Assembly: GCA_049304055.1 (NCBI GenBank) | Contig: JBAQNT010000007.1 | Span: 55,370 to 119,369, forward strand | Source: Microgenomates group bacterium | GTDB lineage: Bacteria > Patescibacteriota > Microgenomatia > UBA1406 > GWC2-37-13 | Reading direction: 5' to 3' | DNA: 64,000 nucleotides | In this document: positions 6,545 to 44,653 of the stretch, piece after piece | Layout: each line of letters opens with the position of its first letter | How positions within the stretch are numbered: position 1 is the stretch's first letter | The notes under the pieces: generated by a model | What the model saw: only the letters and a program-made list of their open reading frames with translations | What the model was told of the DNA's origin: nothing | Database searches by the model: none | Made by a program: the position numbers and the translations under genes

Positions 6545-7639
6545 TTACCTGGTTATCTGATAGCTTTTGACTGTTTCTAGAAGTTTTTTCGCTTCTTCAC
6601 TATCTTCAAAATGCTTTCTGACGGGCTGCAATAATTTATCAATAAGTATAACGACCGTATTTTTTAAGTCCATTGGGTGCAACTTCTTTTCAGCAAATGC
6701 CGCTTCCAGTTCTGCGTAGGTTTTAAATCGCAGTGTCCCGCCCCATTTTTCCGGGCGTTCGACAACGAACTCAGTGATGCTAAGTCGCTCAAAAGACTCA
6801 AATATAATGTATTTGCAATATTCAAGCACTGGATTTTCCTTTACATCCCCCTCCAAACAATATGCCTTATTAATTTTTCGCTGTACATCTTCTTTCGTAT
6901 CGGTCATGAATATCGCGGTATCGGGCTTTGACTTGGACATCTTCAGTTCGATGGTCCTTTGGAGTGCGTCCTGCTCATTTGAGACAGGTTTTGCCAGCCC
7001 GCGAAGCATGTGATGGCTGACGACAACCGGTTTCCAGTATCCCAACTGTTGCCCGACTTCCCGCGCCAACATATTCACTTTGCGTTGATCCATGCCAAGT
7101 TGGGTAATTTTCGCACCCAACATGAAAATGTCAGCAACTTGCATACAGGAGTAGATGATATGTGCGCCAGTAAGCTTTTCAAGTGACTCCTCACGTCCCA
7201 TCATCTCGGCAGTCCGGATGAACCGTTTCAACGCATTTGATTTTCCGACCTGCACGACAAGTTTCCAGTATTCTGGATTCTTTGCCATATCAGACGCCCA
7301 CATGAACTCAACGTTATCAAGGTCCATGCCGCTCGCCCGCCAGACCTCAATAAAATATTTTCCGACAGTCTTTATCTTTTCCAAGTCCCCACCCATCTTG
7401 TTGTTCGCCATCGCGTGCCAATCCGCAACCCACATACGGAACTTGACTCCAGCCTTGATCATTTTATTCACGTTGATCGCACGAAGAAGACCTTGTGCAA
7501 TATGAATTTGTCCAGACGGTTCAAATCCGTCATATGCAATAAGCTGTTCGCCGCTTTCAAGAAGGGATTTCAGTTCCTCTCCTCCGATTATTTCTTCACC
7601 CACCTCGTTAATAAGATTCAGCTTATCTTCTGTATTCAT
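6545..7639 (-). CDS. tyrS: Tyrosyl-tRNA synthetase, archaeal/eukaryal type
   Basis: YDGFEPSGQIHIAQG (HIGH region) and KMSKSKPD (KMSKS). The C-terminal RPEKWGGTL...KKLHPMDLKNTV closely parallels the Methanocaldococcus-type TyrRS as I recall it from memory. Confidence 0.85.
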   Translation of the reverse strand: MNTEDKLNLINEVGEEIIGGEELKSLLESGEQLIAYDGFEPSGQIHIAQGLLRAINVNKMIKAGVKFRMWVADWHAMANNKMGGDLEKIKTVGKYFIEVWRASGMDLDNVEFMWASDMAKNPEYWKLVVQVGKSNALKRFIRTAEMMGREESLEKLTGAHIIYSCMQVADIFMLGAKITQLGMDQRKVNMLAREVGQQLGYWKPVVVSHHMLRGLAKPVSNEQDALQRTIELKMSKSKPDTAIFMTDTKEDVQRKINKAYCLEGDVKENPVLEYCKYIIFESFERLSITEFVVERPEKWGGTLRFKTYAELEAAFAEKKLHPMDLKNTVVILIDKLLQPVRKHFEDSEEAKKLLETVKSYQITR

Positions 7640-10756: not shown

Positions 10757-12655
10757 CTAGTTTTCAATCAGTGCGGATAATGTCTTGATTACTTTTGCTC
10801 GCGCCTGCGCAAACTCTTCTGTCACCTTAAAATCATTTCCATCCACAGTTGCGTCGAGTAAGTCCATTGAATGGAATAGGGTGTTACCGCTCAGCGAAAG
10901 CGCATCAGTTACACGCTCCACCTTGCGCTTACCTCTAAAGAATTGGGCGTAAAGGACGTCTTTACTCATTTTTGAATAGTCAGCACCTGGGTCCTCGGTA
11001 AGTTCCATCATCGCCATGCGCTCCATACTACCAGGTGAATCGAGTTCCATATGTGCCATATCTTTCACGATATTGCTATAAAATCTCAGATCGTTTATCT
11101 TCAACATATTCCTTAAATTCTTATTTTCTTCTGTCCGCCAGTTGGAAACACCAAGCGGCACTGAAACTTCGACACCATTTTTCTCATAAATGGGGAATGA
11201 TGAGTGACCCATATCTGTCAACATTGCCTCTGTCTCACCCCCCAATCTCGATCCTTCACGCACCCCTATAACAAATGTTCCTCCAAACCGGGAAATGAAA
11301 AGCTTGCCGCGCTCTTCCGGAGGTATACATGACTTTATTTTTTTCCATACGTTCGTTATTGCATTGTCTGCATCAGCATAACTCATATGTTCATTCATCT
11401 CTTTCATGAATTTCAAATCAATAATCATGACGTTTGAGAAGTCTCCATGCTGAAGATGTTCCTGGAAGTCGAAACGGGTATAGATTGCCTCACCAATCAG
11501 TGGATCAAAGACGGATCGTTCTATCAGATTCAAGACAACCTCTTGGCGGGTTGTCCCCCCTCCGCTTTGATGGTCAAACAGATATGCAAGATCAAAGTAC
11601 AAGGCCAATTCGGGATGTTGTGACTGGATGAATGCTATTTTATCTTCAAAAGTCACCGTTTCCTTGGGATAAAGACTCCGTGAGGTTGGATAGTCTCTTT
11701 TATATGCATCCATATCGAAGTTTTTTCCATCTGTCGTGTATTTATTCCTTATTTTGATTAACTCCTTCGTATCAAGCAATAATCCTCGCTCAAAATACTC
11801 ATGGAACAGCATTTTGTCTGTCTCATCTTGAGGAATTTCTATCCACTTTGCTTTTTTTCCGTCCGGATTCTTTTTTAATCGGATGCTGTCCTCTTCTATG
11901 ATAAAATCCTTTCCTTCGGGCCGACGGTAATATCCCTTCTGCTCTCCCAAATGTCTTTCTATCGCTTCCAATATCCGTTCCTTTTGGTTCTGTGTATAGT
12001 TCCCGATAAGAGCAAACATGAATTCATCTCCTCCATATCTTCCTACCTCATAAGACAACTTTGAATTGTCGCGTAGCCCGATTGTCGGATCATTCCAGAC
12101 CTCATGAAGAGCACTACGCAGGGCAAAAGCAGCTTTGTTAATAAGCACGTCGCCTGGATTATGCTTTTGTCCTTCTAGATTAAAGTCGGCACTGCGCAAA
12201 TCCTGCAGATCGATGAGACCTATCTCAACCTGACTCCCTTGTGCATCATGTTCGAGAAGATTGTTTATGAGTGAAGCGCGAGAATGGATCGGCACTGGTT
12301 CAGAAGTGTATGTCACCTTTTCCATTGCTCCATCCTTGTTTTTTGCCGTAAACGTACAATCAACTTTTCTGTTGGTTCCAGCATCAAAAACATGGTCAAA
12401 CAATCCTTCAAAAAGTGCAGTTGCGTTCTCCACACCCTCAGATTCTGGATCTTTCAATATATCTATCTGACTCTTAAAAAGCCTATGCAGTGCCTTTTTT
12501 TCTTCACTGTTGCCAAGTACCTTCATCTGTCTCTCAAACACATGACCGACTGCATGATTGTAGGAATCCAATCCTTTTATTGGCATAATACCCTGTTCCT
12601 GAGCTAGTTGTAATTTGGTAAGGACACTTGCGATGTCCGCGACATATTCTGCCAT
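10757..12655 (-). CDS. Protein with two tandem GGDEF-like (palm) domains, one intact (GGDEF) and one degenerate (GGTF)
   Basis: VGRYGGDEFMFAL is encoded at about 12014-12052. The second domain has DPLIGEAIYTRFDFQEHL...MIIDLKFMKEMNE...ISRFGGTFVIGV. The track start at 12724 overlaps tkt. The ATG at 12655 (MAEYVADI) leaves a 46-bp divergent spacer, so the start remains uncertain. Confidence 0.6.
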   Translation of the reverse strand: MAEYVADIASVLTKLQLAQEQGIMPIKGLDSYNHAVGHVFERQMKVLGNSEEKKALHRLFKSQIDILKDPESEGVENATALFEGLFDHVFDAGTNRKVDCTFTAKNKDGAMEKVTYTSEPVPIHSRASLINNLLEHDAQGSQVEIGLIDLQDLRSADFNLEGQKHNPGDVLINKAAFALRSALHEVWNDPTIGLRDNSKLSYEVGRYGGDEFMFALIGNYTQNQKERILEAIERHLGEQKGYYRRPEGKDFIIEEDSIRLKKNPDGKKAKWIEIPQDETDKMLFHEYFERGLLLDTKELIKIRNKYTTDGKNFDMDAYKRDYPTSRSLYPKETVTFEDKIAFIQSQHPELALYFDLAYLFDHQSGGGTTRQEVVLNLIERSVFDPLIGEAIYTRFDFQEHLQHGDFSNVMIIDLKFMKEMNEHMSYADADNAITNVWKKIKSCIPPEERGKLFISRFGGTFVIGVREGSRLGGETEAMLTDMGHSSFPIYEKNGVEVSVPLGVSNWRTEENKNLRNMLKINDLRFYSNIVKDMAHMELDSPGSMERMAMMELTEDPGADYSKMSKDVLYAQFFRGKRKVERVTDALSLSGNTLFHSMDLLDATVDGNDFKVTEEFAQARAKVIKTLSALIEN

Positions 12656-12685
12656 GGGTGTAATTGTCTCATTGTACAGAAAATA

Positions 12686-12694
12686 TGCTACACT
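12686..12694 (+). promoter_or_regulatory. Extended -10 promoter (TGcTACACT) 7 nt upstream of the tkt ATG
   Basis: TGCTACACT at 12686-12694, with the ATG at 12702. Confidence 0.4.
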
Positions 12695-12701
12695 CAGGGA
12701 T

Positions 12702-14534
12702 ATGAATACAGTATCAACACTCATAACCCTTGCAAAACGCGTCCGTCACGGCATTATTACTTCCACCACATCGGCAGGATCAGGACACCCCTCTTCCTCC
12801 CTTTCTGCAGTTGAACTCATCACAGCACTTTTTTTTGGCGGATACTTCAAGCAAGACACCTCTAAATTTACATCGATCACGAACGATAAATTTGTCCTGT
12901 CTAAAGGACATGCGGCTCCTCTTCTCTACTCACTCTATGAAACAGCGGACGTGATAACAAAAGATGAACTATTGACTTTGAGGAAATTTGATTCGCGCCT
13001 ACAAGGGCATCCCACACCCGAAGTGCCATTCGTTGATGTGACGACCGGAAGTTTAGGTCAAGGATTGTCGGTTGGCGTTGGGATGGCTATTGGATTACAA
13101 CGTAAATCTAAAACTTCTAATGTGTATGTCCTTTTGGGGGATTCAGAATTCGCTGAAGGGCAAAACTACGAAGCCCTCCAGCTGGCTGGACACTATAAAC
13201 TTAATAATCTCATCGGTATCTTGGATGTGAACCGTCTTGGCCAACGAGGAGAGACACAGATAGCATGGGATACGGAAACATATAAGAAGCGTGTTGAGTC
13301 ATTCGGCTGGGACACAGAGGTTATCGAAAACGGAAACGACATGGAATCCGTTCTTTCTGCATTCGAAAAAAAGTTGGGTTCACCACGCACAAAACCGTTG
13401 ATGTTTATTGCGAAAACCAAAAAAGGTGCGGGCGTTTCTTTTATGGAAGATGCAGATAATTGGCATGGCAAACCCATTCCACAAGACAAATTGCAACAAG
13501 CACTTCAAGATATAGGAGATGTCGATTTTTCTGTTACCGGAACAATTGATAAACCAAAAGAAAGCGCGAGTGAGCGCATCGCAACCAAAAAACCTGTCCA
13601 ATTCAAGCTGCCAAATAGCGCAATGTCGACTCGTGAAGCATACGGACACGCACTTGCCGAACTTGCAAAGACAAATAAAGATATTGTCGCGCTTGACGCA
13701 GAGACATCAAACTCTACCTATGCTGAGTTTGTCAAGAAAGAAACACCTGACCAATTTGTCGAGTGTTATATCGCCGAACAGAATATGGCGAGTATGGCTC
13801 TTGGCCTTTCAAAAGTGGGATACGTCCCATTCGCATCAAGTTTCGCCGCATTTTTAAGCCGTGCATTTGACCAAATAAGGATGAGCCAATATTCACGTCC
13901 GAGACTGAACATCGTGGGGTCACATGCAGGCTGTTCCATCGGAGTGGATGGCGCATCCCAGATGGCGCTTGAAGATATCGCGATGATGAGAAGCATACGG
14001 GAAAGTGTCGTTCTCTATCCGTCCGACGCGATTTCAACTTATAAACTTACCGAACAAATGGTTGCAAAAACCGGCATCCATTATCTTAGAACGACAAGAG
14101 AAAAGACACCTCTATTATATGGAGTCGATGAACAGTTCCCAGTAGGTGGATGTAAAGTACATTATTGTGCAGATCAACAGTTTGATACCGTCATTATCAC
14201 CGCAGGAATAACGCTTCATGAGGCACTCAAAGCTCAAAAACAACTTGAAGAGAAGCAAATTCATACGGCCGTTGTTGATTTATACTCCATAAAGCCGCTT
14301 GATGGAGGAAAAATAAATGAACTACTGACAAAAGCAAAACACCTGATAGTGGTGGAGGATCACCATGAAGCAGGAGGCATCGGTGAGGCCGTCCTTACCT
14401 CAGTTGGACTTAAGAAAAGCATGAAGTTCACCCATCTATGTGTACGGAAAGAGCCTCGTTCAGGTAGCCCTGAAGAGCTTATGAGATATGAGGAGATAGA
14501 TGCGCAAGCAATCGTAAACGCGATCACAAAGTAA
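12702..14534 (+). CDS. tkt: Transketolase (610 aa, short single-chain form)
   Basis: SGHPSSSLSAVELITALFF, GSLGQGLSVGVGMA (ThDP binding) and DGASQMALEDIAMMRS. The track start at 12615 is a TTG inside the divergent gene region. The ATG at 12702 is preferred. Confidence 0.9.
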   Translation: MNTVSTLITLAKRVRHGIITSTTSAGSGHPSSSLSAVELITALFFGGYFKQDTSKFTSITNDKFVLSKGHAAPLLYSLYETADVITKDELLTLRKFDSRLQGHPTPEVPFVDVTTGSLGQGLSVGVGMAIGLQRKSKTSNVYVLLGDSEFAEGQNYEALQLAGHYKLNNLIGILDVNRLGQRGETQIAWDTETYKKRVESFGWDTEVIENGNDMESVLSAFEKKLGSPRTKPLMFIAKTKKGAGVSFMEDADNWHGKPIPQDKLQQALQDIGDVDFSVTGTIDKPKESASERIATKKPVQFKLPNSAMSTREAYGHALAELAKTNKDIVALDAETSNSTYAEFVKKETPDQFVECYIAEQNMASMALGLSKVGYVPFASSFAAFLSRAFDQIRMSQYSRPRLNIVGSHAGCSIGVDGASQMALEDIAMMRSIRESVVLYPSDAISTYKLTEQMVAKTGIHYLRTTREKTPLLYGVDEQFPVGGCKVHYCADQQFDTVIITAGITLHEALKAQKQLEEKQIHTAVVDLYSIKPLDGGKINELLTKAKHLIVVEDHHEAGGIGEAVLTSVGLKKSMKFTHLCVRKEPRSGSPEELMRYEEIDAQAIVNAITK

Positions 14535-14546
14535 ACTTACTCTAAC

Positions 14547-14580
14547 AAAAAACCTCCGATTTTCATCGGAGGTTTTTTTT
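14547..14580. terminator. Bidirectional intrinsic terminator between the convergent tkt and giant genes
   Basis: 10-bp stem aacctccgat/atcggaggtt with loop tttc, flanked by an A-run (14547-14552) and a T-run (14573-14580). Confidence 0.8.
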
Positions 14581-14591
14581 CATGTTAAATG

Positions 14592-17500
14592 TTATTGTGC
14601 GTTTGTTTGGCTAAATAAGTCTTCTTGTTGGTAATCCTTTAATCCCATATTGTTCAATAAAACAACTGGATCAAGGGATAAATGTTCAAAATTAAGCGTT
14701 TCTCCGGCTGCTGCATACCCGGCAAACCATTGCATGTATTTGAATGCACGTTTTCCCAGTTTTCCGTTTGGCGCAGAGACATTGTGGAAAAATTGCAAAG
14801 CAGCTGTCTTTTCTTCAGCAGATGCTGCAAGACGCTGATCAAGGTTTTTTCCATACGCTTTCGTCACATCACCATACGTTTTTAATTCTTCTACAGCATC
14901 GCCAGCAGCTTTATAAACCTGGTCTCTTATGGATTTAAGGCCGTCTATTTCAGCCTTTATCTGGTCGATTGCGATTCTATCTGCCTTCTCTCCCAAAGCG
15001 CTCATCTCATTTGTCAATTTTTCTTCTATGGCAAGGAGACTTTGCAACTCTAATCCACGTTTTTCCGCAACCGCCGTTCTCATTCCCATTATTTTTTCCA
15101 CCTGGTCGGCATCTCCCGAGATTATTTTGGTAAACATGTCAACATATGTCTTAACCAATGTCTCAACGCTTGTTGATGACTCTCCAAGACCTGTTTTTTG
15201 CATGATTTCAGCAAACTTTGCCATTACCTCAGTGCGCTGCTCCATCGTTATATTAACGATCTTTGCCAGTGAGCTAGCCATCGCTTCTGCACCGCTTTGG
15301 ATTGCACTAAGGACTGCTCCTGTCTGATTCCTGCTTACTTGGAACATATTTGGCTGTGTCATATTTCCCCCTTTTCCTGCACTTTTCTTTGCAGTTTCCG
15401 TCAACACATGGAGGAATTCCTGCATCGATTCTATTACTTTCACTTCAAAATTCTCTCCCCCTCCTGAAATACGGGCCTGTTTTACCATCTCCTCAAAGAC
15501 AGCAAACGATCCGCGTTCTTTCAGTATCTTTTCTAGGTCAGCAGCTGATTTCATTTGGTCTCTTTTTCCTTGAATATCCATTTTTGCCTCAAGTTCACTT
15601 ATCCATCCTTCACCTCTTGCCTTCAACTGTGCAAGCAGAACTGAATCCTGGCCTAAACCTTCAATACTGACCACTTGTCCGTTTTCGATACGGATAAGAG
15701 GTTTCAATCCACCCATCATTGTCTTCAGGGCTTCTTCATATTTCTTTTCGATAACAGTCAGTTCTCCAGCTAACTCATCCATGAGTCCACCAGTTTTGCT
15801 TAAGTATTTTTGTGCATTTCCTGGTATCTCATCCTGGTTGAATGTCGCGATATATGTGCTTAAGTCTTTTCTTCCCAAATCCTCCAAAATCTTTTTCATT
15901 TCTTTCTTCTGTTCTTCATCACCGAGTGCATAGGTTATACGGACGGCCTGTTCGATAAAGTTTCCCTCTTGGTCAACCTTCATGACGCCTCGTATTTTAT
16001 CCTTAAATTGATCGGTGTCTTCGTTCGTAACAATGGAAATCGCCATTCTCTTTCCACCTCTTCCCCCTAAGAACATGTATCCTCTTAACATTTCAAGAGT
16101 TGCGTCAACTGCCATCCTGGATGACTTTGTATAAATAAGCTGAGAAGCTGCCTCACTGCTTTCCGTTTGTCCCCTGAGGAGATCTCCTATATAGGTATGC
16201 TCTGGCACGACACCCGCACCAAAGGCAATTCCCGTCCAATTATGATGCTCAATCCATTTTATATAGTCTCCATAGGAGTTTGCTTTGGCGACAAATCCAT
16301 CAAAGAATTTGTGCATCATCTCATCTGACCACAGTGGCAACTCATTCTGCAGCACATGTTGCGCTGCAAGACGTATATCTTCATGGTATTTGTACGCACC
16401 TGACTTGTCATTATCCGTCAATATGTCGTGCAATAAATTGACATAGGCAGATCCGATTGTGCCAACCGCTTTAACATCTTCATTTTCTCCAAAATCCTTA
16501 AATGCTTTACCAAGTAATACCAAATGTGCCGCATTAACATCTGCAAGACTTGTTCGTTGTGCCTCGTTAGCACCTGTTGCAGGTCCTGACATCTCCAGAT
16601 CTTCAATCTGGTGGATGAGATTATATGCAAAACTTTCCCAAGCACTTCTCTTATCTCCATCTAAGGTTGTCCAGTCTTTATCGAACATGAAAGATGTTCC
16701 TGGCAATGTTGCAACCTGTCCGAAATCATCCAAGAATGCCAAAACCAACTCAAGAGCATTCTTTGAGTCTTCTGGCTTATCGCTCAATGGAATATCAAGA
16801 GCGTTCAGTATAATCTTTGTTAACGCTGGACTTACAGATGTTTCTGTATCTGCGTTAAAGAGATATTTACCTGTTGCCTTATAGACTTTATTTAGTTTTT
16901 CATACCATCTATCATCCTTCTTTTCATCTCGGAGAAGATTATATACCTGTTCACGGACCTTATTCCATTTTGATTGTCCGAATTTACGTTTATTCTTAAT
17001 AAGTCTTGTTCGCATTTCTCCTGTCACAGCAAGCTCCATAAGGATACGTGGACTGAAATTCCCCCATGCGGCAATTTGCTCAAGGATAGATAGTCTGTCG
17101 CCTTTTTTAATCATCTTTGATGATGTTTCGATTGATGATTCCAAACCATGCGTTGCGTTTGAGATAGATTTTGGATCTTGTCCAAAATCAACATCCTTTG
17201 CTTCTAGCGAGTTTACATCCTTTCCTTCATATGGGTTTTTTCCGGCAAATGTTCTGCCGAATTTTGCATACCGATAGCTAAAGAGAAGTTCAATACAAAG
17301 CAATTTTTCTTTTGGTATTACATTCTTTTCTGCCAGATTGGTTTCGATATATGTCGTAAAATCACCCAATCTGTTTCTGTTTGTAACACTCTCATCAATG
17401 ATTCGTTTTATGAATTCCACCTGTATCGAGCCTATCGTACGGACAGATTTTGCACCTTGATACTCATTTTCCCCAGCTCTTCTTTTTTCTCTCGCAGCAA

Positions 17501-20500
17501 GTTCAATTGCCACAGGTGACACTGAAAGGAAATTGAAGAATTCAAACGCCATTCTCTGTCGAAGATCTGGATCTTCAACCTTGTCCAAAGCCTTAAACAT
17601 CTCATCGACTCCCGCTCGAAGAAATGCTCCTACATATCGGAAATCTCGTGTCTTGAGCGCGTCCATGAACTTCTCATGATTTGAGTCGGCGATGACCGAA
17701 AGGTCTCCTTGGTTCCCTTGTGTTGTGTTGCCTTCGTACTTTAATGCAAGATATGTTCTCCAATAGTTACCGAATTCATTTTGAGCAGCTTCGACTCCTT
17801 CTATGACTGCGCTTCCCATTATTTCATCTATTTCTTTCTGCAATTTTTCTTTTTCGTCTGCTTGATCGCTCCCTGTACCTAACGCTTTAAGCTGTTCTCT
17901 GAGTGTATCTGCACTTTTTTCCTTTGCTTTTTGCGCTACATCTCCCTTCAGAACTGCGCTCAGCGATAACTTTTCTGCGGCATATTCTGCAGCATCAGCA
18001 CCGAGCACTTCTGAAATTCGTCCGAATAAGGTTTTGAGTGTGCTCAATGATTTTATTGTCTGTTCATTTGTTGAGGCACTATCAATTGCTGTCTTTATTG
18101 CATCTTGAACGTTCGTAAGTAATTTATAGCAAATTTCAGGAAATGCAGATTTGACCTCCTCTGGCTTTTGCTCTTTTTTCATCGGCTTGAGGAGATTAAT
18201 CATCCCATCTACCTGAAGCATAAGGGACTGGACCACATTAAATTCACTCCCAATACCATAGTGTGGATTCTGAATATGACTTACCAATCTTTTACCGAAT
18301 TCTGGATCACTGGCTTGATCGAAATAGAACTTAACCATACCCTCAACAAAAGTAGGCTTACCATCACTTTCTCTTTTGAGAGTTTCTTGTACAAATGAAT
18401 TAAACTCATCTGCCACCACATGTTTTTGTTTTGTGTCAAGATTTGCGACAGATAGTGGAAGTATGCCTCCAGTTATGTCGGTTGAATCCAACCATAGTAA
18501 TAACTGCTTAAATCCAACTTCTATAAACTTCTGTTGCATCTCTGGAGCAAGTAATTTTACTGTATCTTTTACTGACGTAAAATGTGCTTTCGTATCTTCA
18601 AGAATCTGTTTTACGCTTGCCGTATGCAATCCTCCATGCCCAAACTTTTTGTCGACTATGTCTGAAATATATGTGTTCCAGAATTCGATCAGAGGTTGTT
18701 CAACCAGTTGATTATTTGTCTCAACTCGCAATGTGTTTAGTTCATCCTTTGTTATCTTTCCATGTTCTTGGATGAATACTGCAAGTCGTCCTCCTATCTG
18801 GAGCGTGCCATTTTGAGTCAACACATTGTATTCTGCACTACTTATTTCGCCTGTTTCCTCTATTTTTTTTGCTATTTCAGCATATAATTTACCCTTTCCA
18901 AAGATCTCTTCTGTGAGACCTGTTTCTGTTACTGACGTGAATAATGATTGACTTTCAGAAGTAGAAAATGCACCTTTTAACTCATCTGTAGCTGCGTGAT
19001 GGATTTCTCCCAATTTTTTTACTACAGTCGTATCTAATGTGCGAGCTTCGCGTATTGTGGCCTTGATTTTATCTACTGTGACTTCATATACCTGAGCTTG
19101 TTTGTCGTTACCTTGTCTTTTTGCACGGCTGATCAGATCTTTTGCTTGCTTAACGAAAGTGTCAGCTAGACTAAATTGTCCAGCATCAGCTCCATAATCT
19201 GCGTCCTGTATTCTTGCAACAAGCTTATCTAAGAATGCTTTTGTAGACTCAGGGGTTTCTATTTGCTGATCATAAAAGTCAGTTTGACCAGTTACTACTT
19301 CAGGGTTGACGCTAGTAAACACTGCTTCCGCTGTGTTTTTGTATAGATCTCGAATTGCAGGGTTTTTTGTCTTCTTATATGCATCAAGTAGTTTTTCTTG
19401 TACGACCTCAAACATTCCTGCCTGAAGAGATACGTTGGCTCTTCGTTCATATGCGCTAAACAGACCGCCAATGACTCCAGCAATTGCCGATGTGGCCTCT
19501 TCTGACTTACCTCCCAATCCATATCCAGGATTAGATATCATATCAACCCACATGGTCAGTTCAGCATGTAGTTGATCGCTTTTTGCTAATTTTCGTCTTT
19601 CTATTTCATCATCTCCTAGTCTGTGTTTTGCAACTAGATCAAATCGCTCGGTAAGACTGTTGACTTGTGTATCAAAGTAAGCAGTATCTATCGTATGTTT
19701 TGCGACATCTGCAAATACACGACCTAACGAAAGAGCCGCTCTTCCGTCCACCTGAGTTCTAAGACCTTCAAGTAATTGTCTTTTTGCGGCATTCATTATC
19801 TGATATCTAGTCTTTGAGGGGAGCTCTTGATATGCATCGCTTTCTAAAAACGCCTTTAGTTCGACTTCGATTATGCTTTTTGTCTCTCTGCCGTCTTCAA
19901 CAGTAAATGGATGGGTTCCACCTATACCGTAAGTTGCATTTTCTATCCCTGTTCTCGTTCCTATGAACATGTTAGGAATCATCGATCCCGTTTCTTTTGC
20001 AGCTTCATCTGCGATATTCGCAGTGATATTGTGCCAATATTGTTTTCTCCCGTCTGCTAGGTTTTCATTATCTAAAATAAGATCTTTGTAGTAATCTCTT
20101 AATTCTTCTCGCTCTCTTTCATTTACGTGCTCCCTATCAAATCCTGAAAGCAACATTTCACGTCCAACTTCTATAAATCGTGATGCATAGTCACTCCACC
20201 CGCGATCATGCAATGATCCAACAACCTCATTATAGAAATTTTTTATTTCTTTGGTCGTCGGCTTATGTTTACCTTCTCCATATTTTCCATGCGTTATCTG
20301 TGATACCATAAAGGACCAAAACTCTTCAGGCTCCAATTGCCCCGCTTTTGTCACTTTTTCGTTCAAAATCAAACCCATTCCAGTGAGACGTCGGGAGAAG
20401 AATGGGAGAAGTTCGCGTGCAGCATGAAGGTATGCTGTTCCAATCGATGCGCCTTCGCTAGGGATATATGGCACACGTGATAATTCACGAGAACCGGCAC

Positions 20501-20531
20501 CTTGGTTACTGAGAGATATGAGTTTGGACAT
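14592..20531 (-). CDS. Giant orphan protein (1979 aa), predicted cytoplasmic and helix-rich
   Basis: Uninterrupted 5.9-kb ORF with its own promoter. No signal peptide or TM segment. Charged and coiled-coil-like composition. No catalytic motif that I can recognise. Confidence 0.85.
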   Translation of the reverse strand: MSKLISLSNQGAGSRELSRVPYIPSEGASIGTAYLHAARELLPFFSRRLTGMGLILNEKVTKAGQLEPEEFWSFMVSQITHGKYGEGKHKPTTKEIKNFYNEVVGSLHDRGWSDYASRFIEVGREMLLSGFDREHVNEREREELRDYYKDLILDNENLADGRKQYWHNITANIADEAAKETGSMIPNMFIGTRTGIENATYGIGGTHPFTVEDGRETKSIIEVELKAFLESDAYQELPSKTRYQIMNAAKRQLLEGLRTQVDGRAALSLGRVFADVAKHTIDTAYFDTQVNSLTERFDLVAKHRLGDDEIERRKLAKSDQLHAELTMWVDMISNPGYGLGGKSEEATSAIAGVIGGLFSAYERRANVSLQAGMFEVVQEKLLDAYKKTKNPAIRDLYKNTAEAVFTSVNPEVVTGQTDFYDQQIETPESTKAFLDKLVARIQDADYGADAGQFSLADTFVKQAKDLISRAKRQGNDKQAQVYEVTVDKIKATIREARTLDTTVVKKLGEIHHAATDELKGAFSTSESQSLFTSVTETGLTEEIFGKGKLYAEIAKKIEETGEISSAEYNVLTQNGTLQIGGRLAVFIQEHGKITKDELNTLRVETNNQLVEQPLIEFWNTYISDIVDKKFGHGGLHTASVKQILEDTKAHFTSVKDTVKLLAPEMQQKFIEVGFKQLLLWLDSTDITGGILPLSVANLDTKQKHVVADEFNSFVQETLKRESDGKPTFVEGMVKFYFDQASDPEFGKRLVSHIQNPHYGIGSEFNVVQSLMLQVDGMINLLKPMKKEQKPEEVKSAFPEICYKLLTNVQDAIKTAIDSASTNEQTIKSLSTLKTLFGRISEVLGADAAEYAAEKLSLSAVLKGDVAQKAKEKSADTLREQLKALGTGSDQADEKEKLQKEIDEIMGSAVIEGVEAAQNEFGNYWRTYLALKYEGNTTQGNQGDLSVIADSNHEKFMDALKTRDFRYVGAFLRAGVDEMFKALDKVEDPDLRQRMAFEFFNFLSVSPVAIELAAREKRRAGENEYQGAKSVRTIGSIQVEFIKRIIDESVTNRNRLGDFTTYIETNLAEKNVIPKEKLLCIELLFSYRYAKFGRTFAGKNPYEGKDVNSLEAKDVDFGQDPKSISNATHGLESSIETSSKMIKKGDRLSILEQIAAWGNFSPRILMELAVTGEMRTRLIKNKRKFGQSKWNKVREQVYNLLRDEKKDDRWYEKLNKVYKATGKYLFNADTETSVSPALTKIILNALDIPLSDKPEDSKNALELVLAFLDDFGQVATLPGTSFMFDKDWTTLDGDKRSAWESFAYNLIHQIEDLEMSGPATGANEAQRTSLADVNAAHLVLLGKAFKDFGENEDVKAVGTIGSAYVNLLHDILTDNDKSGAYKYHEDIRLAAQHVLQNELPLWSDEMMHKFFDGFVAKANSYGDYIKWIEHHNWTGIAFGAGVVPEHTYIGDLLRGQTESSEAASQLIYTKSSRMAVDATLEMLRGYMFLGGRGGKRMAISIVTNEDTDQFKDKIRGVMKVDQEGNFIEQAVRITYALGDEEQKKEMKKILEDLGRKDLSTYIATFNQDEIPGNAQKYLSKTGGLMDELAGELTVIEKKYEEALKTMMGGLKPLIRIENGQVVSIEGLGQDSVLLAQLKARGEGWISELEAKMDIQGKRDQMKSAADLEKILKERGSFAVFEEMVKQARISGGGENFEVKVIESMQEFLHVLTETAKKSAGKGGNMTQPNMFQVSRNQTGAVLSAIQSGAEAMASSLAKIVNITMEQRTEVMAKFAEIMQKTGLGESSTSVETLVKTYVDMFTKIISGDADQVEKIMGMRTAVAEKRGLELQSLLAIEEKLTNEMSALGEKADRIAIDQIKAEIDGLKSIRDQVYKAAGDAVEELKTYGDVTKAYGKNLDQRLAASAEEKTAALQFFHNVSAPNGKLGKRAFKYMQWFAGYAAAGETLNFEHLSLDPVVLLNNMGLKDYQQEDLFSQTNAQ

Positions 20532-20542
20532 ATTTTTTCTGT

Positions 20543-20571
20543 ATTATAACATATAACTATAGGTTTGTAAA
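20543..20571 (-). promoter_or_regulatory. Sigma70-type promoter TTTACA-17-TATAAT (with TG extension), 11 nt before the giant-gene ATG
   Basis: The reverse complement of 20566-20571 is TTTACA and of 20543-20548 is TATAAT. TGT sits immediately upstream of the -10. Confidence 0.6.
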
Positions 20572-20646
20572 ACTAAACCTAAATTTATAAATTTATAGCC
20601 TTAATATATATTAAAATTGATAATTTAATACTTATAATAATTTTTA

Positions 20647-23106
20647 TTAATCCTTTTTAATACCAATATATGAACTCACTTCTCTCAATCTTTCAACTGT
20701 TTTTGGTACATATTCTGTCCCATGTTTTTGAAATATACTGAGGACGTCTGTAACTGTTTTGATCCTATGGCCTCCTTCTAGGTGCCGCATATTTGCAATC
20801 AGAATCGTTTCTAATGCTTCCTTATTTATATGGGGATATTGTCTTACTTGACCGCGTAGACCGCTTGGATATGTTCGGGCTGTTTTCCAAAACCAACTTT
20901 CTGCTTTTTCTTGACGATGTTCTTGCTTACAAAGTTCAAACGCAAGTTGCATCACTTCCTTTCCAATTAATTCTTTACGGACGTGTGCAACACGAAGATC
21001 GTTCTCTATTTGAGTGCTAATACCGTTCTGAGCAAGTATATCCTCGAGTTTTTGCATTTGATTTCTTGTTTCTCCGTCCCACCATAGTTTTACCTCATCA
21101 ACCCTTTTTGAAAGATTCTCATATACAATATTCCGCTCATCTTTTTTATTCTGGCTTGCTTGTTTTTTTCTAAAATCAGCCTCGATAGTCGCAAAATCAG
21201 GTCTTTGCACCATATCAAGAAGTCCACCTAAATCTTTATGTTCTCTTGCTCTATGCGCTCGTTCGGTTATGGTAAGCAGCGTCTGCATATCATGCCATTC
21301 ATTTGAGTTGAAATCGGCATTTTGTTCCTGTGCAACAAGTGCAGCGTACACCTTTAACGTTCTGTGTTTCTTAAGTATTTCTTGAATCTCAGGATGAGAT
21401 GCATTTATGAGATTATGTATCGCATGGTGGGCAAAGGAGTTTCTACGATCCATTGCCTTTTGTTCATTGTGGTCTTTTATCCTTAACCTCACTACATTTA
21501 GCCCAACGAGGGCTGCTCCTATCAGACCAAGAAATGAAAAGCCATTATATGCCCGCTCAGCAAATATTGGGTATGTTGGTTTGTCTATTTGCCCAGCAGA
21601 AAGTTCATATACGTCCAGAGGCATCGTCTGGCTATAACCATTCTTATCTGTCATTGTTAGGCTCATATCATTTACCAATCCCATTTGACCATAGGGAACC
21701 TCACAATTAAATGTGTTTACCTGGGCAACCGGTGCGACCGGATTACAGTTAATCGTGGTATCAGAACCGTTTACCATTTTTTCAATTCCTTGCCATAAAC
21801 TTCCTGGACTCATCGCAGTACTTTGATGACCTTTTACTTCTATCGTTTCTACGCTTTGAGTTGAGTCGTTTGAGGTTATTGTTATTCGCAGATCTTTACC
21901 CTTCCATGCGTCGACATGTGCCCCATATGCAAATGGATTATAGATAGGTTGTTGGGTTGTTGCAGTAGTTGACCTATGCGCAGGATCAGAAACAGCAAAT
22001 TGAATCGGTTGATTGTTCATATCGACTCGGGCAGCCCCAAGTGGGACACTTCCTGTTTGACCTTCTGGAATATGTACTCCATTTACTACACAATCAGCGT
22101 CATATGCAACTTCAACACAAGTAAATCCGTCCAATATGATTTGTCCCTTCAGGATTTTTACTGTGCCCGAATACATGAATTGTGGACTCCCTTCCAGTCC
22201 AAGAGTTGGCGCAACAAAAGTAGTATGTGTTTGAAAGCCATTACTTTCTGCCGTGATGAGTGTTGATTCCCCATCTCCTGCTTTTACTGGGACATTCAAG
22301 GCTTCACCCTGTTGTTGGGTTGCTCCAACTTTTATTGAATCAGCTGAAAGTTCACATGCTGTGTCACATGCAACAGCCACACTGTATTGATCGTTTTTAT
22401 AAACGATACCTGATTGGACAGTTGGATTGGCTCCAATCGCAACATCAATCTGTGATGTATTACCTGCGATATCTTTCATGGTCGCAACCGCTCTGTGCGA
22501 TGGGTCATTTATCACAGCAGACACCTGACCATTCACTATGGGAGATGTAATTCCTTCAACTGTGAACATCCCATCTTCACTACAGTTTGCCTGAATTGTA
22601 TTGCCAGAAAACCCTGTTTGAGTGCAGGCGATTTCTTGTGTGTCGAATGTAGCAGATCCACTTGCACTCCCCGCAGTCACACATGAACCGCTTGAGTCAA
22701 CTGCTTGTATTTCCATCATGATAGATGCGACCCCCTGCACCCCATCTTGCGGTGTCAAATTGACCGTCATTTCACCTGTTATTGGATTATATGAAACATT
22801 AGCGGTTACAAGCTGTGCATTAGAAATTTCGATGTTTGGTGGACATTTGACTAAGTCTATTGAATCGCTAAACGCAGCGGGGATTGTTATAGATTGTTGA
22901 AACTGTTCTGAAACAAACTGAGGAAGGTTTAATGCATATTGTTGGGGAGGTGCTTCTGACCCACACGCTGTCAAGACAGCCTCGGCAATACCAAGTGCAA
23001 GGAATGTCGCGATGTTTTTTGATGTAAGGAGTGTGTGATGTTCAGGCATGCGAGCAGACATCCGATGTTCCATCTTACGACGTCTATGCTCTTGCTTGGC
23101 AGACAT
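20647..23106 (-). CDS. Bitopic envelope protein (819 aa): lipoprotein-like signal, ~480-aa extracytoplasmic beta-rich region, one TM, ~275-aa cytoplasmic helical tail
   Basis: The lipobox-like ALGIAEAVLTAC follows a basic N-terminus. The second TM, FSFLGLIGAALVGLNVVRL, is encoded at 21481-21540. The track start at 23145 is a TTG. The ATG at 23106 sits 10 nt after a TATAAT. Confidence 0.75.
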   Translation of the reverse strand: MSAKQEHRRRKMEHRMSARMPEHHTLLTSKNIATFLALGIAEAVLTACGSEAPPQQYALNLPQFVSEQFQQSITIPAAFSDSIDLVKCPPNIEISNAQLVTANVSYNPITGEMTVNLTPQDGVQGVASIMMEIQAVDSSGSCVTAGSASGSATFDTQEIACTQTGFSGNTIQANCSEDGMFTVEGITSPIVNGQVSAVINDPSHRAVATMKDIAGNTSQIDVAIGANPTVQSGIVYKNDQYSVAVACDTACELSADSIKVGATQQQGEALNVPVKAGDGESTLITAESNGFQTHTTFVAPTLGLEGSPQFMYSGTVKILKGQIILDGFTCVEVAYDADCVVNGVHIPEGQTGSVPLGAARVDMNNQPIQFAVSDPAHRSTTATTQQPIYNPFAYGAHVDAWKGKDLRITITSNDSTQSVETIEVKGHQSTAMSPGSLWQGIEKMVNGSDTTINCNPVAPVAQVNTFNCEVPYGQMGLVNDMSLTMTDKNGYSQTMPLDVYELSAGQIDKPTYPIFAERAYNGFSFLGLIGAALVGLNVVRLRIKDHNEQKAMDRRNSFAHHAIHNLINASHPEIQEILKKHRTLKVYAALVAQEQNADFNSNEWHDMQTLLTITERAHRAREHKDLGGLLDMVQRPDFATIEADFRKKQASQNKKDERNIVYENLSKRVDEVKLWWDGETRNQMQKLEDILAQNGISTQIENDLRVAHVRKELIGKEVMQLAFELCKQEHRQEKAESWFWKTARTYPSGLRGQVRQYPHINKEALETILIANMRHLEGGHRIKTVTDVLSIFQKHGTEYVPKTVERLREVSSYIGIKKD

Positions 23107-23116
23107 ATAGTCACGT

Positions 23117-23145
23117 ATTATATCAAAAACTATAGGTTTTTTCAA
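23117..23145 (-). promoter_or_regulatory. Sigma70-type promoter TTGAAA-17-TATAAT (TG-extended), 10 nt before the ATG at 23106
   Basis: The reverse complement of 23140-23145 is TTGAAA and of 23117-23122 is TATAAT. Confidence 0.55.
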
Positions 23146-23253
23146 GAAGATGTATGAGTTTAGAAGTTATCCCTCTATAATATACTATATAGGGAAATTA
23201 CTCATTTTTTTTCATTTGCTATAAGTAGCAATAAGGAAATTACACCTTATATA

Positions 23254-25780: not shown

Positions 25781-26326
25781 TTAATTAATGCTGAGTGCCT
25801 TAAGCTTATGCATCACTTTCATTTTGCCAAGCGCTGCATATGCTATCTCCATTGTTTCCAAAATACTTGCAACCGTCCTGTTTGCTTCATCAAATGTCAC
25901 TGCCCGGACATTATGAGGAAAATAGTGGAAGATTTCGTTTCTCCCCAATTTCCAGGTTTTCCATACACGGTCTGCCAACTCTCTTGATCCATTCTGTCTC
26001 ATTTTTTCAAATAATGACCTATTTCCCAGCTTCATTATTAAATGAGGTGAGAGTAATTTACCAAGACGCAAATGGTCGGAAATATAATCAAGATGAGAAA
26101 TGAATCCGATATCCTTGAACATCTGCTTCAAGAACCCTTCATATGCTTTTGCGAAGGGAAAAATAAGGAAAGAGTAATCTTTGAAACGATAGGCGTGGTC
26201 CTGGATCACTTCGTTCATGAGGTATTGACCCTCATCGATAAGGTCCCGTTGTGTCTGTGAGAGATATGCCCACAACATTCCCTTTGTTGATTCTTCCACG
26301 ACTTGAGGTTGAGTTTGACCCAGCAT
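25781..26326 (-). CDS. Hypothetical protein (181 aa) with a HEPN-like Rx4H motif
   Basis: All-helical composition. GRNEIFH (R-x4-H) lies near the C-terminus. The gene has its own promoter and sits 22 nt upstream of the ATPase gene. Confidence 0.4.
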   Translation of the reverse strand: MLGQTQPQVVEESTKGMLWAYLSQTQRDLIDEGQYLMNEVIQDHAYRFKDYSFLIFPFAKAYEGFLKQMFKDIGFISHLDYISDHLRLGKLLSPHLIMKLGNRSLFEKMRQNGSRELADRVWKTWKLGRNEIFHYFPHNVRAVTFDEANRTVASILETMEIAYAALGKMKVMHKLKALSIN

Positions 26327-37750: not shown

Positions 37751-37756
37751 AACAAC

Positions 37757-38554: not shown

Positions 38555-38561
38555 AATACAT

Positions 38562-44644: not shown

Positions 44645-44653
44645 CTGAGATAT

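What the first reader, a model, noticed from the sequence alone, without database searches (positions are those of the whole stretch)
14592..23106. Two-gene module: an 819-aa bitopic lipoprotein-like envelope protein followed by a 1979-aa orphan cytoplasmic giant
The two genes are co-oriented and 115 bp apart. Each has a strong promoter (TTGAAA-17-TATAAT at 23117-23145 and TTTACA-17-TATAAT at 20543-20571). A bidirectional terminator (14547-14580) closes the unit.

The upstream protein has four parts:
- a basic N-terminus with a lipobox-like LTAC
- ~480 extracytoplasmic residues rich in T/S/G/V/Q (Ig/beta-sandwich-like)
- one more TM (21481-21540)
- a ~275-aa helical cytoplasmic tail

The downstream protein has no signal peptide, TM or catalytic motif that I can recognise. 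It is strongly helical and coiled-coil-like (long E/K/A/L-rich stretches such as 14900-15700).

A plausible reading is a trans-envelope device in which the giant protein docks on the cytoplasmic tail of the membrane partner. It could act as a scaffold, cytoskeletal element or exported cargo. Nearly 9 kb of a small genome spent on two proteins of unknown family is a strong candidate for undescribed biology.
Basis: inference. Interest (0 to 1): 0.72.

Follow-up and report, generated by a model that had tools for sequence, protein, structure and literature searches.

The report
Membrane protein plus giant helical-repeat partner
A group of tiny uncultured bacteria (Microgenomates/Roizmanbacteria, Candidate Phyla Radiation) keeps a pair of co-regulated genes of unknown function, one for a surface-exposed membrane protein and one for a ~2,000-residue all-helical repeat protein, and neither protein resembles any characterised family.

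Summary
Both genes are under strong purifying selection (dN/dS 0.05-0.08).

The giant (G) is not a singleton. An exhaustive HMMER scan of 1.84 billion representatives found 18 other proteins (E <= 0.001; 24-32% identity apart from one closer N-terminal fragment, mostly 1,400-1,930 aa), all unnamed. The only taxon labels are Microgenomates and Roizmanbacteria.

Of 13 distinct related loci, 11 carry a homologue of the membrane protein (M) directly upstream. Two carry G without it.

G is not demonstrably coiled-coil. AlphaFold2 models are all-alpha, and Foldseek returns only HEAT/ARM-type alpha-solenoids, at very low TM-scores. Profile comparisons show seven ~110-aa "YGxGG" repeats followed by a highly conserved helical core.

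New here: both genes carry the same deeply conserved promoter, TTGAAA...C[CT]TATA[AG]...TGnTAWAAT. The strict pattern sits in front of M/G-family genes and nowhere else in about 300 kb examined.

Best reading (inferred, not shown): M's conserved cytoplasmic "SWFW...YPHI" tail recruits G as a scaffold under the membrane. No homology to any characterised family was found. Function is unknown. Interest is moderate to high.

The parts
20647..23106 (-). Gene M: 819-aa lipoprotein-like bitopic membrane protein
   Evidence: ORF and translation. dN/dS is 0.076-0.079. Homologues lie upstream of G in 11 of 13 distinct related loci. No Pfam, NCBIfam, PDB, PHROG or PADLOC match.
22963..23016 (-). M signal/anchor segment (aa 31-48) ending in the lipobox-like LTAC; Cys48 would be the lipidated residue
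   Evidence: Hydropathy 1.71 and the pattern [LVI..][AST..][GAS]C. Orthologues have LSGC, LAGC, MASC, ATAC or ATSC at the same place.
21547..22962 (-). M extracytoplasmic domain (aa 49-520), T/S/G/V/Q-rich with 10 Cys
   Evidence: Composition and Cys positions. Cys454 and Cys468 are invariant across all 9 aligned proteins; Cys88, 142 and 161 are kept in most but not all full-length orthologues. The fold was not determined.
21478..21546 (-). M second transmembrane segment (aa 521-543), followed by RLRIK
   Evidence: Hydropathy 1.86. A TM-like segment lies at an equivalent position in most orthologues, but the 1.5 hydropathy threshold found none in L003 and L005.
20650..21477 (-). M cytoplasmic tail (aa 544-819); conserved motifs SWFW (20887-20898) and YPHINK (20821-20838)
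   Evidence: Tail alignment of 10 loci. The motif (D/E)SWFW ... YPH(I/L)x(K/R)exLE is shared by 8-9 of them.
23117..23145 (-). M promoter: TTGAAA (-35), CCTATAG box (23130-23136), extended -10 TGATATAAT; the ATG follows 10 nt after the -10
23171..23225 (-). Conserved upstream boxes of M: ACTTATAGCAAA (CTTATAG at 23219-23225) and the imperfect palindrome CCCTATATAGTATATTATAGAGGG (23171-23194)
   Evidence: Conserved in the alignment of 9 loci. TATAG/CTATA words are about 17-fold enriched upstream of M and G. This is a candidate operator; that role is inferred.
20543..20571 (-). G promoter: TTTACA (-35), CCTATAG box (20557-20563), extended -10 TGTTATAAT; the ATG follows 11 nt after the -10
   Evidence: There are 22 invariant columns across 10 loci.
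14592..20531 (-). Gene G: 1979-aa cytoplasmic all-alpha helical-repeat protein
   Evidence: ORF. dN/dS is 0.045-0.066. Family of 19 proteins with E <= 0.001, the query's own cluster included, in 1.84 billion representatives. Homology runs the full length of the protein.
20340..20531 (-). G N-terminal ~64 residues, predicted disordered and poorly conserved in the family
   Evidence: pLDDT below 50 for residues 1-54 and 56-64. Family alignment.
17502..20339 (-). G repeat region (aa 65-1010): seven ~110-aa helical 'YGxGG' repeats (motifs at aa 84, 201, 337, 446, 630, 758 and ~932), an insert at aa 505-590 and a long E/K-rich helix at aa ~823-929
   Evidence: Motif list. hhalign between repeat profiles gives probabilities up to 97.6% and E down to 3e-12. 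AF2 model: pLDDT 80.4, all-alpha. Foldseek hits are alpha-solenoids only.
15612..17501 (-). G conserved core (aa ~1011-1640), the most conserved part. Motifs include SPIA, GAKxxRTLG, YIET, FSP, RxxKxxRK, DDxxQVxxxPG, PYWSxE, WIExxxW, DATLxxLxGYxxLGGR and LGRxD (GAFLxAG lies just upstream in the repeat region, aa ~968-974)
   Evidence: 86-98% invariant columns per 50-column window (two windows lower, 80-82%) among the three close relatives; dN/dS 0.02-0.04 over aa ~900-1700. Family consensus. AF2 shows helices, pLDDT mostly 60-90.
14595..15611 (-). G C-terminal region (aa 1641-1979): helical with long helices and low model confidence; conserved C-terminal ...P..LL...GL end
   Evidence: Model residues 774-808 and 817-913 have pLDDT below 50. 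Family alignment. No heptad signal.
14547..14578 (.). Bidirectional intrinsic terminator between the convergent G and transketolase genes
   Evidence: Strong hairpins of different sequence lie at the same position in 6 of the 9 relatives examined (L001, L002, L006, L008, L010, L011), at -20 to -24 kcal/mol; L005, L007 and L009 show none.

Best explanation
This is a lineage-specific, vertically inherited two-gene module of Microgenomates/Roizmanbacteria-type CPR bacteria.

**Gene M** encodes a surface protein. It has a lipoprotein-type signal (Cys48), a ~470-aa Cys-containing ectodomain, one membrane span, and a ~275-aa cytoplasmic domain with a conserved SWFW...YPH(I/L)xK motif.

**Gene G** encodes a ~2,000-aa cytoplasmic, all-helical repeat (alpha-solenoid-like) protein. 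It has a disordered N-terminus, seven ~110-aa 'YGxGG' repeats, a very conserved helical core and a helical C-terminal region.

**Regulation.** Each gene is transcribed from its own near-identical promoter: a -35 element, a C[CT]TATA[AG] box in the spacer and an extended -10. The start codon lies 10-11 nt after the -10, so the mRNAs are probably almost leaderless. The genes are therefore probably switched together by a factor that reads the box. A bidirectional terminator ends the unit.

**Proposed mechanism (inferred).** G is a large interaction scaffold that M's cytoplasmic domain holds under the membrane. This would couple whatever the ectodomain binds outside the cell (a host or partner cell surface, or the organism's own envelope) to a cytoplasmic platform. 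It would work like an adhesion receptor plus a giant helical adaptor.

**Status of each step**
- Shown: gene structures, selection, family, synteny, shared promoter, topology signals, and an all-helical repeat architecture whose only fold matches are weak alpha-solenoid hits.
- Inferred: cytoplasmic location of G, the M-G contact, co-regulation by a dedicated factor, and the adhesion/scaffold role.
For: **Real genes.** dN/dS is 0.045-0.079.

**Family.** 19 proteins with E <= 0.001, the query's own cluster included, among 1.84 billion representatives; most of the rest are 1,400-1,930 aa and 24-32% identical, plus one closer N-terminal fragment. Homology runs the full length of the protein. The only taxon labels are Microgenomates and Roizmanbacteria.

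**Synteny.** M lies directly upstream of G, with a gap of 102-134 bp, in L001, L002, L003, L005 (and its duplicate L004), L006, L007, L008, L010, L011, L012 and L013. L005 and L007 have unrelated flanking genes.

**M homology and topology are conserved.** Evidence comes from BLASTP and from the lipobox Cys, second TM and SWFW tail motif.

**Shared promoter.** The composite CCTATAG-N3-7-TGnTAWAAT occurs twice in the 64-kb window, exactly at the two promoters, with 0 expected. The degenerate form, C[CT]TATA[AG]-N3-7-TGnTAWAAT, scanned over about 300 kb of window plus loci, is found only in front of M/G-family genes or, in L009, the gene preceding G.

**G fold.** AF2 gave pLDDT 80.4 and pTM 0.69 for aa 1-930, and pLDDT 69.5 and pTM 0.61 for aa 900-1979. 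Both models are all-alpha. All top Foldseek hits in the PDB are HEAT/ARM solenoid scaffolds such as CAND1, karyopherins, condensin Ycg1 and beta-catenin. Probability reaches 1.0, but TM-scores are only 0.1-0.2.

**Internal repeats.** hhalign probabilities are 84-98% for 12 of the 15 repeat pairs (37-70% for three pairs involving r7).

**No sign of export or enzymatic function.** G has no signal peptide or TM segment and no enzymatic family match in any library.

**Relative conservation.** G is better conserved than M: 87-93% against 77-83% identity in the close relatives, and 45-67% against 35% in L003. This fits an intracellular structural core paired with a surface-exposed partner.
Against: - No direct evidence of an M-G contact. 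No multimer prediction was possible, and about 12 pairs are too few for a co-variation test.
- Two loci carry G without an adjacent M. L014 has G directly behind the ATPase, with an M-type promoter. L009 has an unrelated 210-aa gene upstream. G can therefore persist without a neighbouring M, unless M lies elsewhere in those genomes.
- L007's partner lacks most of the ectodomain and has no N-terminal signal.
- The solenoid assignment rests on predicted models and on Foldseek hits with very low TM-scores.
- The ectodomain fold is unknown.
- There are no expression data.
- Much of the synteny (ATPase-M-G-transketolase) could simply reflect shared descent.
Confidence: 0.4

Rival explanations
1. 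The two genes are functionally independent neighbours. They are kept together by vertical descent in a slowly rearranging small genome and merely share a regulator or promoter type.
For: Most loci share the wider order ATPase-M-G-transketolase, so adjacency is partly inherited. G occurs without an adjacent M in L014 and L009.
Against: The pair stays together in L005 and L007, where all flanking genes differ. The shared CYTATAR/extended -10 promoter sits in front of M/G-family genes and nowhere else in about 300 kb. In 10 of the 11 distinct paired loci the intergenic gap stays at 116-134 bp (115 bp in the window); in L013, where M is split, it is 102 bp.
Confidence: 0.2
2. G is an exported or injected cargo (an effector, toxin or surface fibre), and M is its dedicated envelope receptor, anchor or translocation helper.
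For: The N-terminal ~64 residues of G are disordered and variable, as many secretion signals are. CPR bacteria live attached to hosts (PMC8080830, as context). M spans the membrane.
Against: G has no signal peptide and no TM segment, and no secretion-system genes lie in any of the loci. A single membrane span cannot form a channel. G is under stronger constraint than M, with core dN/dS of 0.02-0.04; fast-evolving effectors usually show the opposite. There is no toxin or LXG/WXG domain, no variable C-terminus and no immunity-like downstream gene.
Confidence: 0.12
3. G is itself an active machine rather than a passive scaffold, for example a membrane-, nucleic-acid- or nucleotide-binding protein acting through its conserved core. 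M would regulate or localise it.
For: The core (aa ~950-1640) is far more conserved than a generic scaffold would need to be. It has invariant or near-invariant polar residues: D989, S1005, E1015, E1135, K1179, R1182, K1354 and Q1528. It also has a basic RxxKxxRK patch.
Against: No P-loop or other catalytic signature is conserved in the family; GGRGGKR becomes LGGRxxxR. No enzyme family or fold was matched.
Confidence: 0.15
4. The module belongs to a mobile element, prophage or anti-phage defence system.
For: Large proteins of unknown function paired with a membrane protein are common in defence islands. A weak RnlA/HEPN-like gene lies two genes upstream.
Against: There are no PHROG or PADLOC matches and no tblastn match in 50,697 phage records. 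The flanking genes are housekeeping genes and the chromosomal position is stable across deep divergence. Composition across the module (39-42% GC) is close to the 39-47% seen over most of the window.
Confidence: 0.03

Closest known systems
HEAT/ARM-type alpha-solenoid scaffolds (karyopherin-beta, CAND1, condensin Ycg1, beta-catenin)
   Same: G is predicted all-alpha and is built of tandem helical repeats. These proteins are the only Foldseek matches for both halves of G. They act as large, flexible protein-binding platforms. Beta-catenin binds the cytoplasmic tail of a bitopic adhesion receptor, which is the arrangement proposed here.
   Different: G has no sequence or profile similarity to them. 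TM-scores are only 0.1-0.2. The repeat unit here is ~110 aa with a YGxGG loop, not ~40-50 aa. These families are eukaryotic, and alpha-solenoids are rare in bacteria and scale with genome size (PMC3837014).
Integrin-talin and cadherin-catenin adhesion complexes (functional analogy only)
   Same: A bitopic surface receptor with a Cys-containing ectodomain and a cytoplasmic tail, paired with a very large helical cytoplasmic adaptor.
   Different: There is no homology. The interaction has not been shown here. The organism is a monoderm-like CPR bacterium. The M tail is about 275 aa, far longer than an integrin tail.
Mycoplasma attachment-organelle proteins (adhesin P1 with the cytoskeletal giants HMW1/HMW2); from my own knowledge, not tested
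   Same: A small-genome, host-dependent bacterium invests in membrane adhesins plus ~1,800-aa helical cytoplasmic structural proteins.
   Different: HMW2 is a true coiled coil, whereas G shows no heptad signal. There is no sequence similarity. The gene organisation and lineage are different.
Planctomycete/PVC membrane-coat-like proteins (PMC2799638)
   Same: They are bacterial proteins with long alpha-solenoid regions acting at membranes, and another case of eukaryote-like solenoid architecture in bacteria.
   Different: Those proteins combine a beta-propeller with the solenoid. G has no beta-propeller, and no homology was detected.
Bacterial lipoproteins (Lgt/LspA pathway)
   Same: M has a basic n-region, a hydrophobic h-region and LTAC. 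A lipobox-like Cys sits at the same place in the full-length orthologues examined.
   Different: M also has a second, C-terminal membrane span and a large cytoplasmic domain, which is unusual for lipoproteins. Lipidation and the presence of Lgt/LspA in this genome were not tested.

Membership tests
HEAT/Armadillo repeat proteins (Pfam clans) | Significant match to HEAT/Arm/HEAT_2-type sequence profiles | tested here: not met
   No Pfam family at E <= 0.01 for G. Across the 17 family members only two single-member hits near E 0.008 appeared (IcmW, DUF1539), and none to a HEAT/Arm profile.
HEAT/Armadillo repeat proteins (Pfam clans) | Tandem ~40-50-aa helix-turn-helix repeats forming a superhelix, superposable on known solenoids | tested here: inconclusive
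   The models are all-alpha, and the top Foldseek hits are exclusively solenoids with probability up to 1.0, but TM-scores are 0.1-0.2 and rmsd about 30-40 A. The repeat unit detected is ~110 aa.
Coiled-coil cytoskeletal proteins | Long stretches with heptad periodicity of hydrophobic residues | tested here: not met
   A crude heptad scan found no 35-residue window above threshold. The E/K/A/L content of the cited stretch (37%) is close to that of the whole protein (35%). No dedicated coiled-coil predictor was run.
Bacterial lipoproteins | Lipobox [LVI][ASTVI][GAS]C at the end of an n-/h-region signal | tested here: met
   LTAC at aa 45-48 after a basic N-terminus and a hydrophobic stretch. 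Orthologues have LSGC, LAGC, MASC, ATAC, ATSC or ITGC.
Bacterial lipoproteins | Processing by Lgt/LspA and lipidation of the Cys | not testable with these tools
   Only 64 kb of the genome is in hand, and there are no proteomic data.
Polymorphic toxins / T7SS LXG-type substrates | N-terminal LXG/WXG-type domain, variable C-terminal toxin domain and a downstream immunity gene | tested here: not met
   No such Pfam or NCBIfam domains. The C-terminal motif is conserved across most of the family. The downstream gene is a convergent transketolase.
Phage tail tape-measure or other phage structural giants | Phage gene context and similarity to phage protein families | tested here: not met
   No PHROG match. 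No tblastn hit in the phage collection. BFVD fold hits are weak and non-specific. The neighbouring genes are housekeeping genes.
Known anti-phage defence systems | Match to PADLOC models, or a defence-island context | tested here: not met
   No PADLOC match. The chromosomal position is stable and syntenic.
M-G module (the family defined here) | M-type gene (signal with Cys, ectodomain, TM, SWFW tail) directly upstream of a G-type gene, each with a CYTATAR/extended -10 promoter | tested here: met
   The window meets all of these features. The same arrangement is seen in 11 of 13 distinct related loci.

The most novel reading that the evidence does not exclude
The pair would be a previously unrecognised bacterial trans-membrane adhesion or signalling apparatus. 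A surface receptor would hold a eukaryote-style ~2,000-aa alpha-solenoid platform beneath the membrane through its cytoplasmic SWFW domain. The apparatus would be switched on by a dedicated regulator that reads the CYTATAR boxes. It would serve host attachment or cell-envelope organisation in episymbiotic CPR bacteria. That would make it a bacterial functional counterpart of the cadherin-catenin and integrin-talin complexes, built from entirely new protein families.
Probability: 0.25. Interest if true: 0.8.

Novelty: new variant of a known kind. Interest (0 to 1): 0.55.

Why it matters
CPR bacteria make up a large share of bacterial diversity, yet how they build their envelope and attach to hosts is largely unknown. 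This module takes about 8.5 kb of a roughly 1-Mb genome (a related contig is 1.13 Mb). It is under strong purifying selection and is kept together with its own promoter architecture across deep divergence. It is therefore likely to be important to the biology of this lineage.

A ~2,000-aa helical-repeat protein in such a small genome also runs against the reported trend that bacterial alpha-solenoids are rare and scale with genome size (PMC3837014).

The work yields concrete, testable objects:
- two new protein families;
- a new ~110-aa repeat;
- a conserved cytoplasmic motif;
- a candidate operator.

Tried and rejected
**Searches that found nothing**
- Pfam, NCBIfam, PHROGs, PADLOC and PDB-sequence searches with single proteins and with family profiles found nothing significant.
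- The word-indexed protein search with full-length G or M found only relatives of 77% identity or more. Splitting off the N-terminal 800 aa of G recovered a 45% relative.
- Two scans of GTDB genome contigs with back-translated peptides found nothing.
With a trimmed alignment it gave one extra locus.
- tblastn of both proteins against the phage collection gave no match.
- Literature searches found nothing on this family.

**Comparisons that were negative**
- BLASTP self-comparison of G showed no repeats. Only profile-profile comparison did.
- The 2,853-aa ORF at 45396-53957 is unrelated to G.
- hhalign found no repeats within the M ectodomain and no relation between the M tail and the G repeats.

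**Could not be done**
The second job was therefore spent on the N-terminal half of G.

**Readings considered and rejected**
- Leaderless transcription as a feature specific to this module. A -10-like box about 10 nt before the ATG and the absence of a Shine-Dalgarno sequence are common across the window.
- A P-loop at GGRGGKR. It is not conserved in the family.

Full report
**Observation**

The window comes from a Candidate Phyla Radiation genome. The exact proteins are in NCBI as hypothetical proteins of a "Microgenomates group bacterium" MAG.

- G is at 14592-20531(-), 1979 aa.
- M is at 20647-23106(-), 819 aa, counted from the ATG at 23106. The ORF stays open up to a TTG at 23145, but that TTG lies inside the -35 hexamer.
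- The gap between them is 115 bp.

Both promoter-like sites (23145-23117 and 20571-20543, each 11/12 with a TG extension) and the hairpin terminator at 14547-14578 are found by the consensus scan. The overall number of such hits in the region is no higher than in shuffled sequence, so the case for these particular sites rests on their conservation, described below.

M has:
- a basic N-terminus;
- a hydrophobic stretch ending in LTAC (Cys48);
- a 472-aa stretch with 42% T/S/G/V/Q and ten Cys;
- a second hydrophobic segment at aa 521-543 followed by RLRIK;
- a 276-aa tail rich in E/K/R/L/A.

G has no TM-like segment.

Both are real genes. Against relatives with dS of 0.6-1.7, dN/dS is 0.045-0.066 for G and 0.076-0.079 for M. 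The G core reaches 0.02-0.04.

**Is it an orphan?**

Pfam, NCBIfam, PHROGs, PADLOC and PDB sequences give nothing for either protein. The word-indexed search found only close relatives, 87-93% identical for G and 77-83% for M. Searching with the N-terminal 800 aa alone found a 45% relative.

An exhaustive HMMER scan of 1.84 billion cluster representatives with aa 780-1979 found 19 proteins with E <= 0.001, ten of them below 1e-30. One of the 19 is the query's own cluster. The others are 24-32% identical apart from one closer N-terminal fragment (48% over about 100 residues), and mostly 1,400-1,930 aa long. The only names attached are "hypothetical protein" from Candidatus Roizmanbacteria MAGs.

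A 17-member alignment shows homology over the whole length. A profile of that alignment still matches nothing in the PDB, and none of the 17 members matches Pfam significantly.

G therefore belongs to a small, unnamed, lineage-restricted family. It is neither a singleton nor a member of any described family.

**Synteny**

I recovered 14 loci carrying G homologues; L004 and L005 are the same region assembled from two sources, so 13 are distinct.

| Loci | Arrangement |
|---|---|
| L001, L002, L003, L006, L010, L011, L012, L013 | P-type ATPase - M - G - (convergent) transketolase, where the contig extends far enough (L003 and L012 end before the transketolase) |
| L005 (a 1.13-Mb contig; L004 is the same region) and L007 | Unrelated flanking genes, but an M-type gene still sits 119-123 bp upstream of G |
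| L008 | Cut by the contig end, but shows the TM segment and the tail |
| L014 | G lies directly behind the ATPase, carrying what looks like the M-type promoter and its upstream box, which suggests M was deleted |
| L009 | An unrelated 210-aa gene lies upstream of a shorter G |

The upstream proteins are homologous to M: 35% identity over the full length in L003, and E 1e-10 in L005. They keep the same plan: a basic N-terminus, a Cys at the end of a hydrophobic stretch (LSGC, LAGC, MASC, ATAC, ATSC, ITGC), Cys residues in the ectodomain of which two (Cys454, Cys468) are invariant, usually a second TM-like segment, and a tail with a conserved (D/E)SWFW...YPH(I/L)x(K/R)exLE motif.

Variants exist. 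L007's partner is only 440 aa: TM plus tail, with a short N-terminal part and no signal. L013's M is split into 681 + 137 aa.

The pairing is therefore strongly conserved, in 11 of 13 distinct related loci, but it is not obligate.

**A shared, module-specific promoter (new)**

I aligned the regions upstream of G from ten loci. The sequence T-rich -35 ... CCTATA(G/A)nnAT(n)TGnTATAAT is almost invariant, although the proteins have diverged to about 20% identity. The ATG follows roughly 10-15 nt after the -10.

The regions upstream of M show the same design, TTGAAAAAACCTATAGTTTTTGATATAAT, plus two further conserved boxes about 45 and 75-80 nt upstream of the -35: an imperfect palindrome CTATATAGTATATTATAGAG and ACTTATAGCAA.

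How specific is the element?
- The composite CCTATAG-N3-7-TGnTAWAAT occurs exactly twice in the 64-kb window, at the two promoters, with 0 expected.
- The degenerate form C[CT]TATA[AG]-N3-7-TGnTAWAAT, scanned over about 300 kb of window plus loci, is found only in front of M/G-family genes or, in L009, the gene preceding G.
- TATAG/CTATA words are about 17-fold enriched in these upstream regions.

A short distance between the -10 and the ATG, and the lack of a Shine-Dalgarno sequence, are general in this genome. They are not special to the module. The CYTATAR box is special to it.

I infer that both genes are controlled together by a factor that recognises this box.

The terminator is also largely conserved in position. 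Six of the nine relatives examined have a strong hairpin there, with varying stem sequences.

**Architecture of G**

| Region modelled | Alignment depth | Mean pLDDT | pTM | Notes |
|---|---|---|---|---|
| aa 1-930 | 20 sequences | 80.4 | 0.69 | All-alpha apart from a few 3-4-residue strands; first ~64 residues disordered |
| aa 900-1979 | 21 sequences | 69.5 | 0.61 | All-alpha except one small beta-hairpin; low confidence for aa ~1673-1812 |

Foldseek against the PDB returns only HEAT/ARM-type alpha-solenoids: CAND1, karyopherins, transportins, condensin Ycg1, beta-catenin, FANCI and mTOR. Probabilities reach 1.0 for the N-terminal half. TM-scores are only 0.1-0.2, as expected for flexible solenoids of different curvature, so this identifies a fold class and is not evidence of homology. 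The viral structure library gives nothing specific.

A recurring motif, h..hh..I....[YF]GxGG, prompted profile-profile comparisons. Segments around aa 84, 201, 337, 446, 630, 758 and ~932 match each other, with hhalign probability up to 97.6% and E down to 3e-12. This defines seven ~110-aa repeats with an unrelated insert at aa 505-590. The region beyond aa ~1010 does not match the repeat.

That later region (aa ~1011-1640) is the best conserved part of the family.

A crude heptad test gives no support for a coiled coil.

**What it most likely does**

The following are shown:
- a conserved, co-oriented pair with a common and specific promoter type;
- a partner with signals for an outside-anchored ectodomain, one span and a conserved cytoplasmic domain;
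- a giant, acidic (net charge -47), signal-less protein that is predicted all-helical, has seven internal repeats, and finds only weak alpha-solenoid matches by fold search.

Alpha-solenoids typically serve as protein-binding platforms (PMC11514114, PMC3837014).

From these points I infer that G is a sub-membrane scaffold recruited by the M tail. It would link an extracellular binding event, or the envelope, to cytoplasmic partners. In this episymbiotic lineage that could plausibly serve host contact or envelope organisation.

This is an analogy to the cadherin-catenin and integrin-talin complexes and to the Mycoplasma attachment organelle. It is not a homology claim.

I put about 0.4 on this reading. 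The descriptive part (family, module, promoter, fold class) is much firmer.

Rival readings, with the evidence for and against each listed separately, are:
- independent neighbours that share a regulator (0.2);
- G as an active machine working through its conserved core (0.15);
- G as exported cargo (0.12);
- a mobile element or defence system (0.03).

**Limits**

- The M ectodomain fold is unknown.
- No multimer prediction was available.
- There are no expression data.
- The taxonomic range rests on two source labels.
- Whether M is encoded elsewhere in the genomes of L009 and L014 is unknown.

**Verdict**

The module consists of two uncharacterised protein families with a new repeat type and a new conserved cis-element. 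As a structural class it is a variant of helical-repeat scaffolds. As a system it has no described bacterial counterpart.

Interest is 0.55.

Noticed in passing
window 58169-64000 (+), runs off the window end: A third giant ORF of more than 1,940 aa. It has an N-terminal hydrophobic segment and 20.6% Gly, and looks like a surface protein. The ORF listing does not show it because it runs off the end of the window. It explains the high GC and the positive GC skew of the last 4 kb.
   Followed up: partly
window 45396-53957 (+): A 2,853-aa ORF with no Pfam or NCBIfam match, unrelated to G. Its sequence is repetitive, Gly/Thr-rich and surface-protein-like. An integrase SAM-like fragment precedes it at 44642-45115.
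   Followed up: partly
window 1179-4283 (-): The leucyl-tRNA synthetase is 1,034 aa, and its two matched stretches are split by an insert. The insert gives weak hits to an esterase model (aa 586-642). Pfam Ser_hydrolase/Abhydrolase hits appear in the L001 orthologue.
   Followed up: no
window, genome-wide (for example upstream of 6545-7639, 30982-31575, 4323-5345 and 25781-26326): Almost no gene has a Shine-Dalgarno sequence, and many have a TAnAAT-like box about 8-17 nt before the ATG. This suggests widespread leaderless or near-leaderless mRNAs in this organism.
   Followed up: partly
L003 7782-7784: The G orthologue at 45-67% identity carries an in-frame TAA, and the reading frame continues in register after it. 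The contig has only 3.9x coverage, so this could be a sequencing error, a pseudogene or a real split.
   Followed up: partly
L014 3639-3788; L013 3428-5898; L009 748-1528: Exceptions to the pairing. L014 has G directly behind the ATPase, with an M-type promoter and the ACTTATAGCA box, so M appears to have been deleted. L013 has M split into 681 + 137 aa. L009 has an unrelated 210-aa gene in place of M.
   Followed up: yes
window 25781-26326 (-): A 181-aa protein with weak RnlA/HEPN-like hits, below the Pfam cut-offs. In the syntenic loci a gene of similar size (173-182 aa; homology not checked) likewise precedes the P-type ATPase.
   Followed up: no
window 37109-39302 (+) and 57404-58108 (+): A DNA-uptake gene set: ComEA-like (SLBB + HHH_3), and a ComEC apparently split into a Competence-domain ORF and an overlapping metallo-beta-lactamase ORF. 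There is also a pilin-like protein with a weak N-terminal methylation-motif hit, just below the Pfam cut-off.
   Followed up: no
window 10757-12724 (-) and 12615-14534 (+): The listed ORFs of the GGDEF-domain protein and the transketolase overlap by 110 bp at their 5' ends. In relatives the called starts are shorter (632 and 609 aa), so the true starts are probably downstream of the longest-ORF starts.
   Followed up: no
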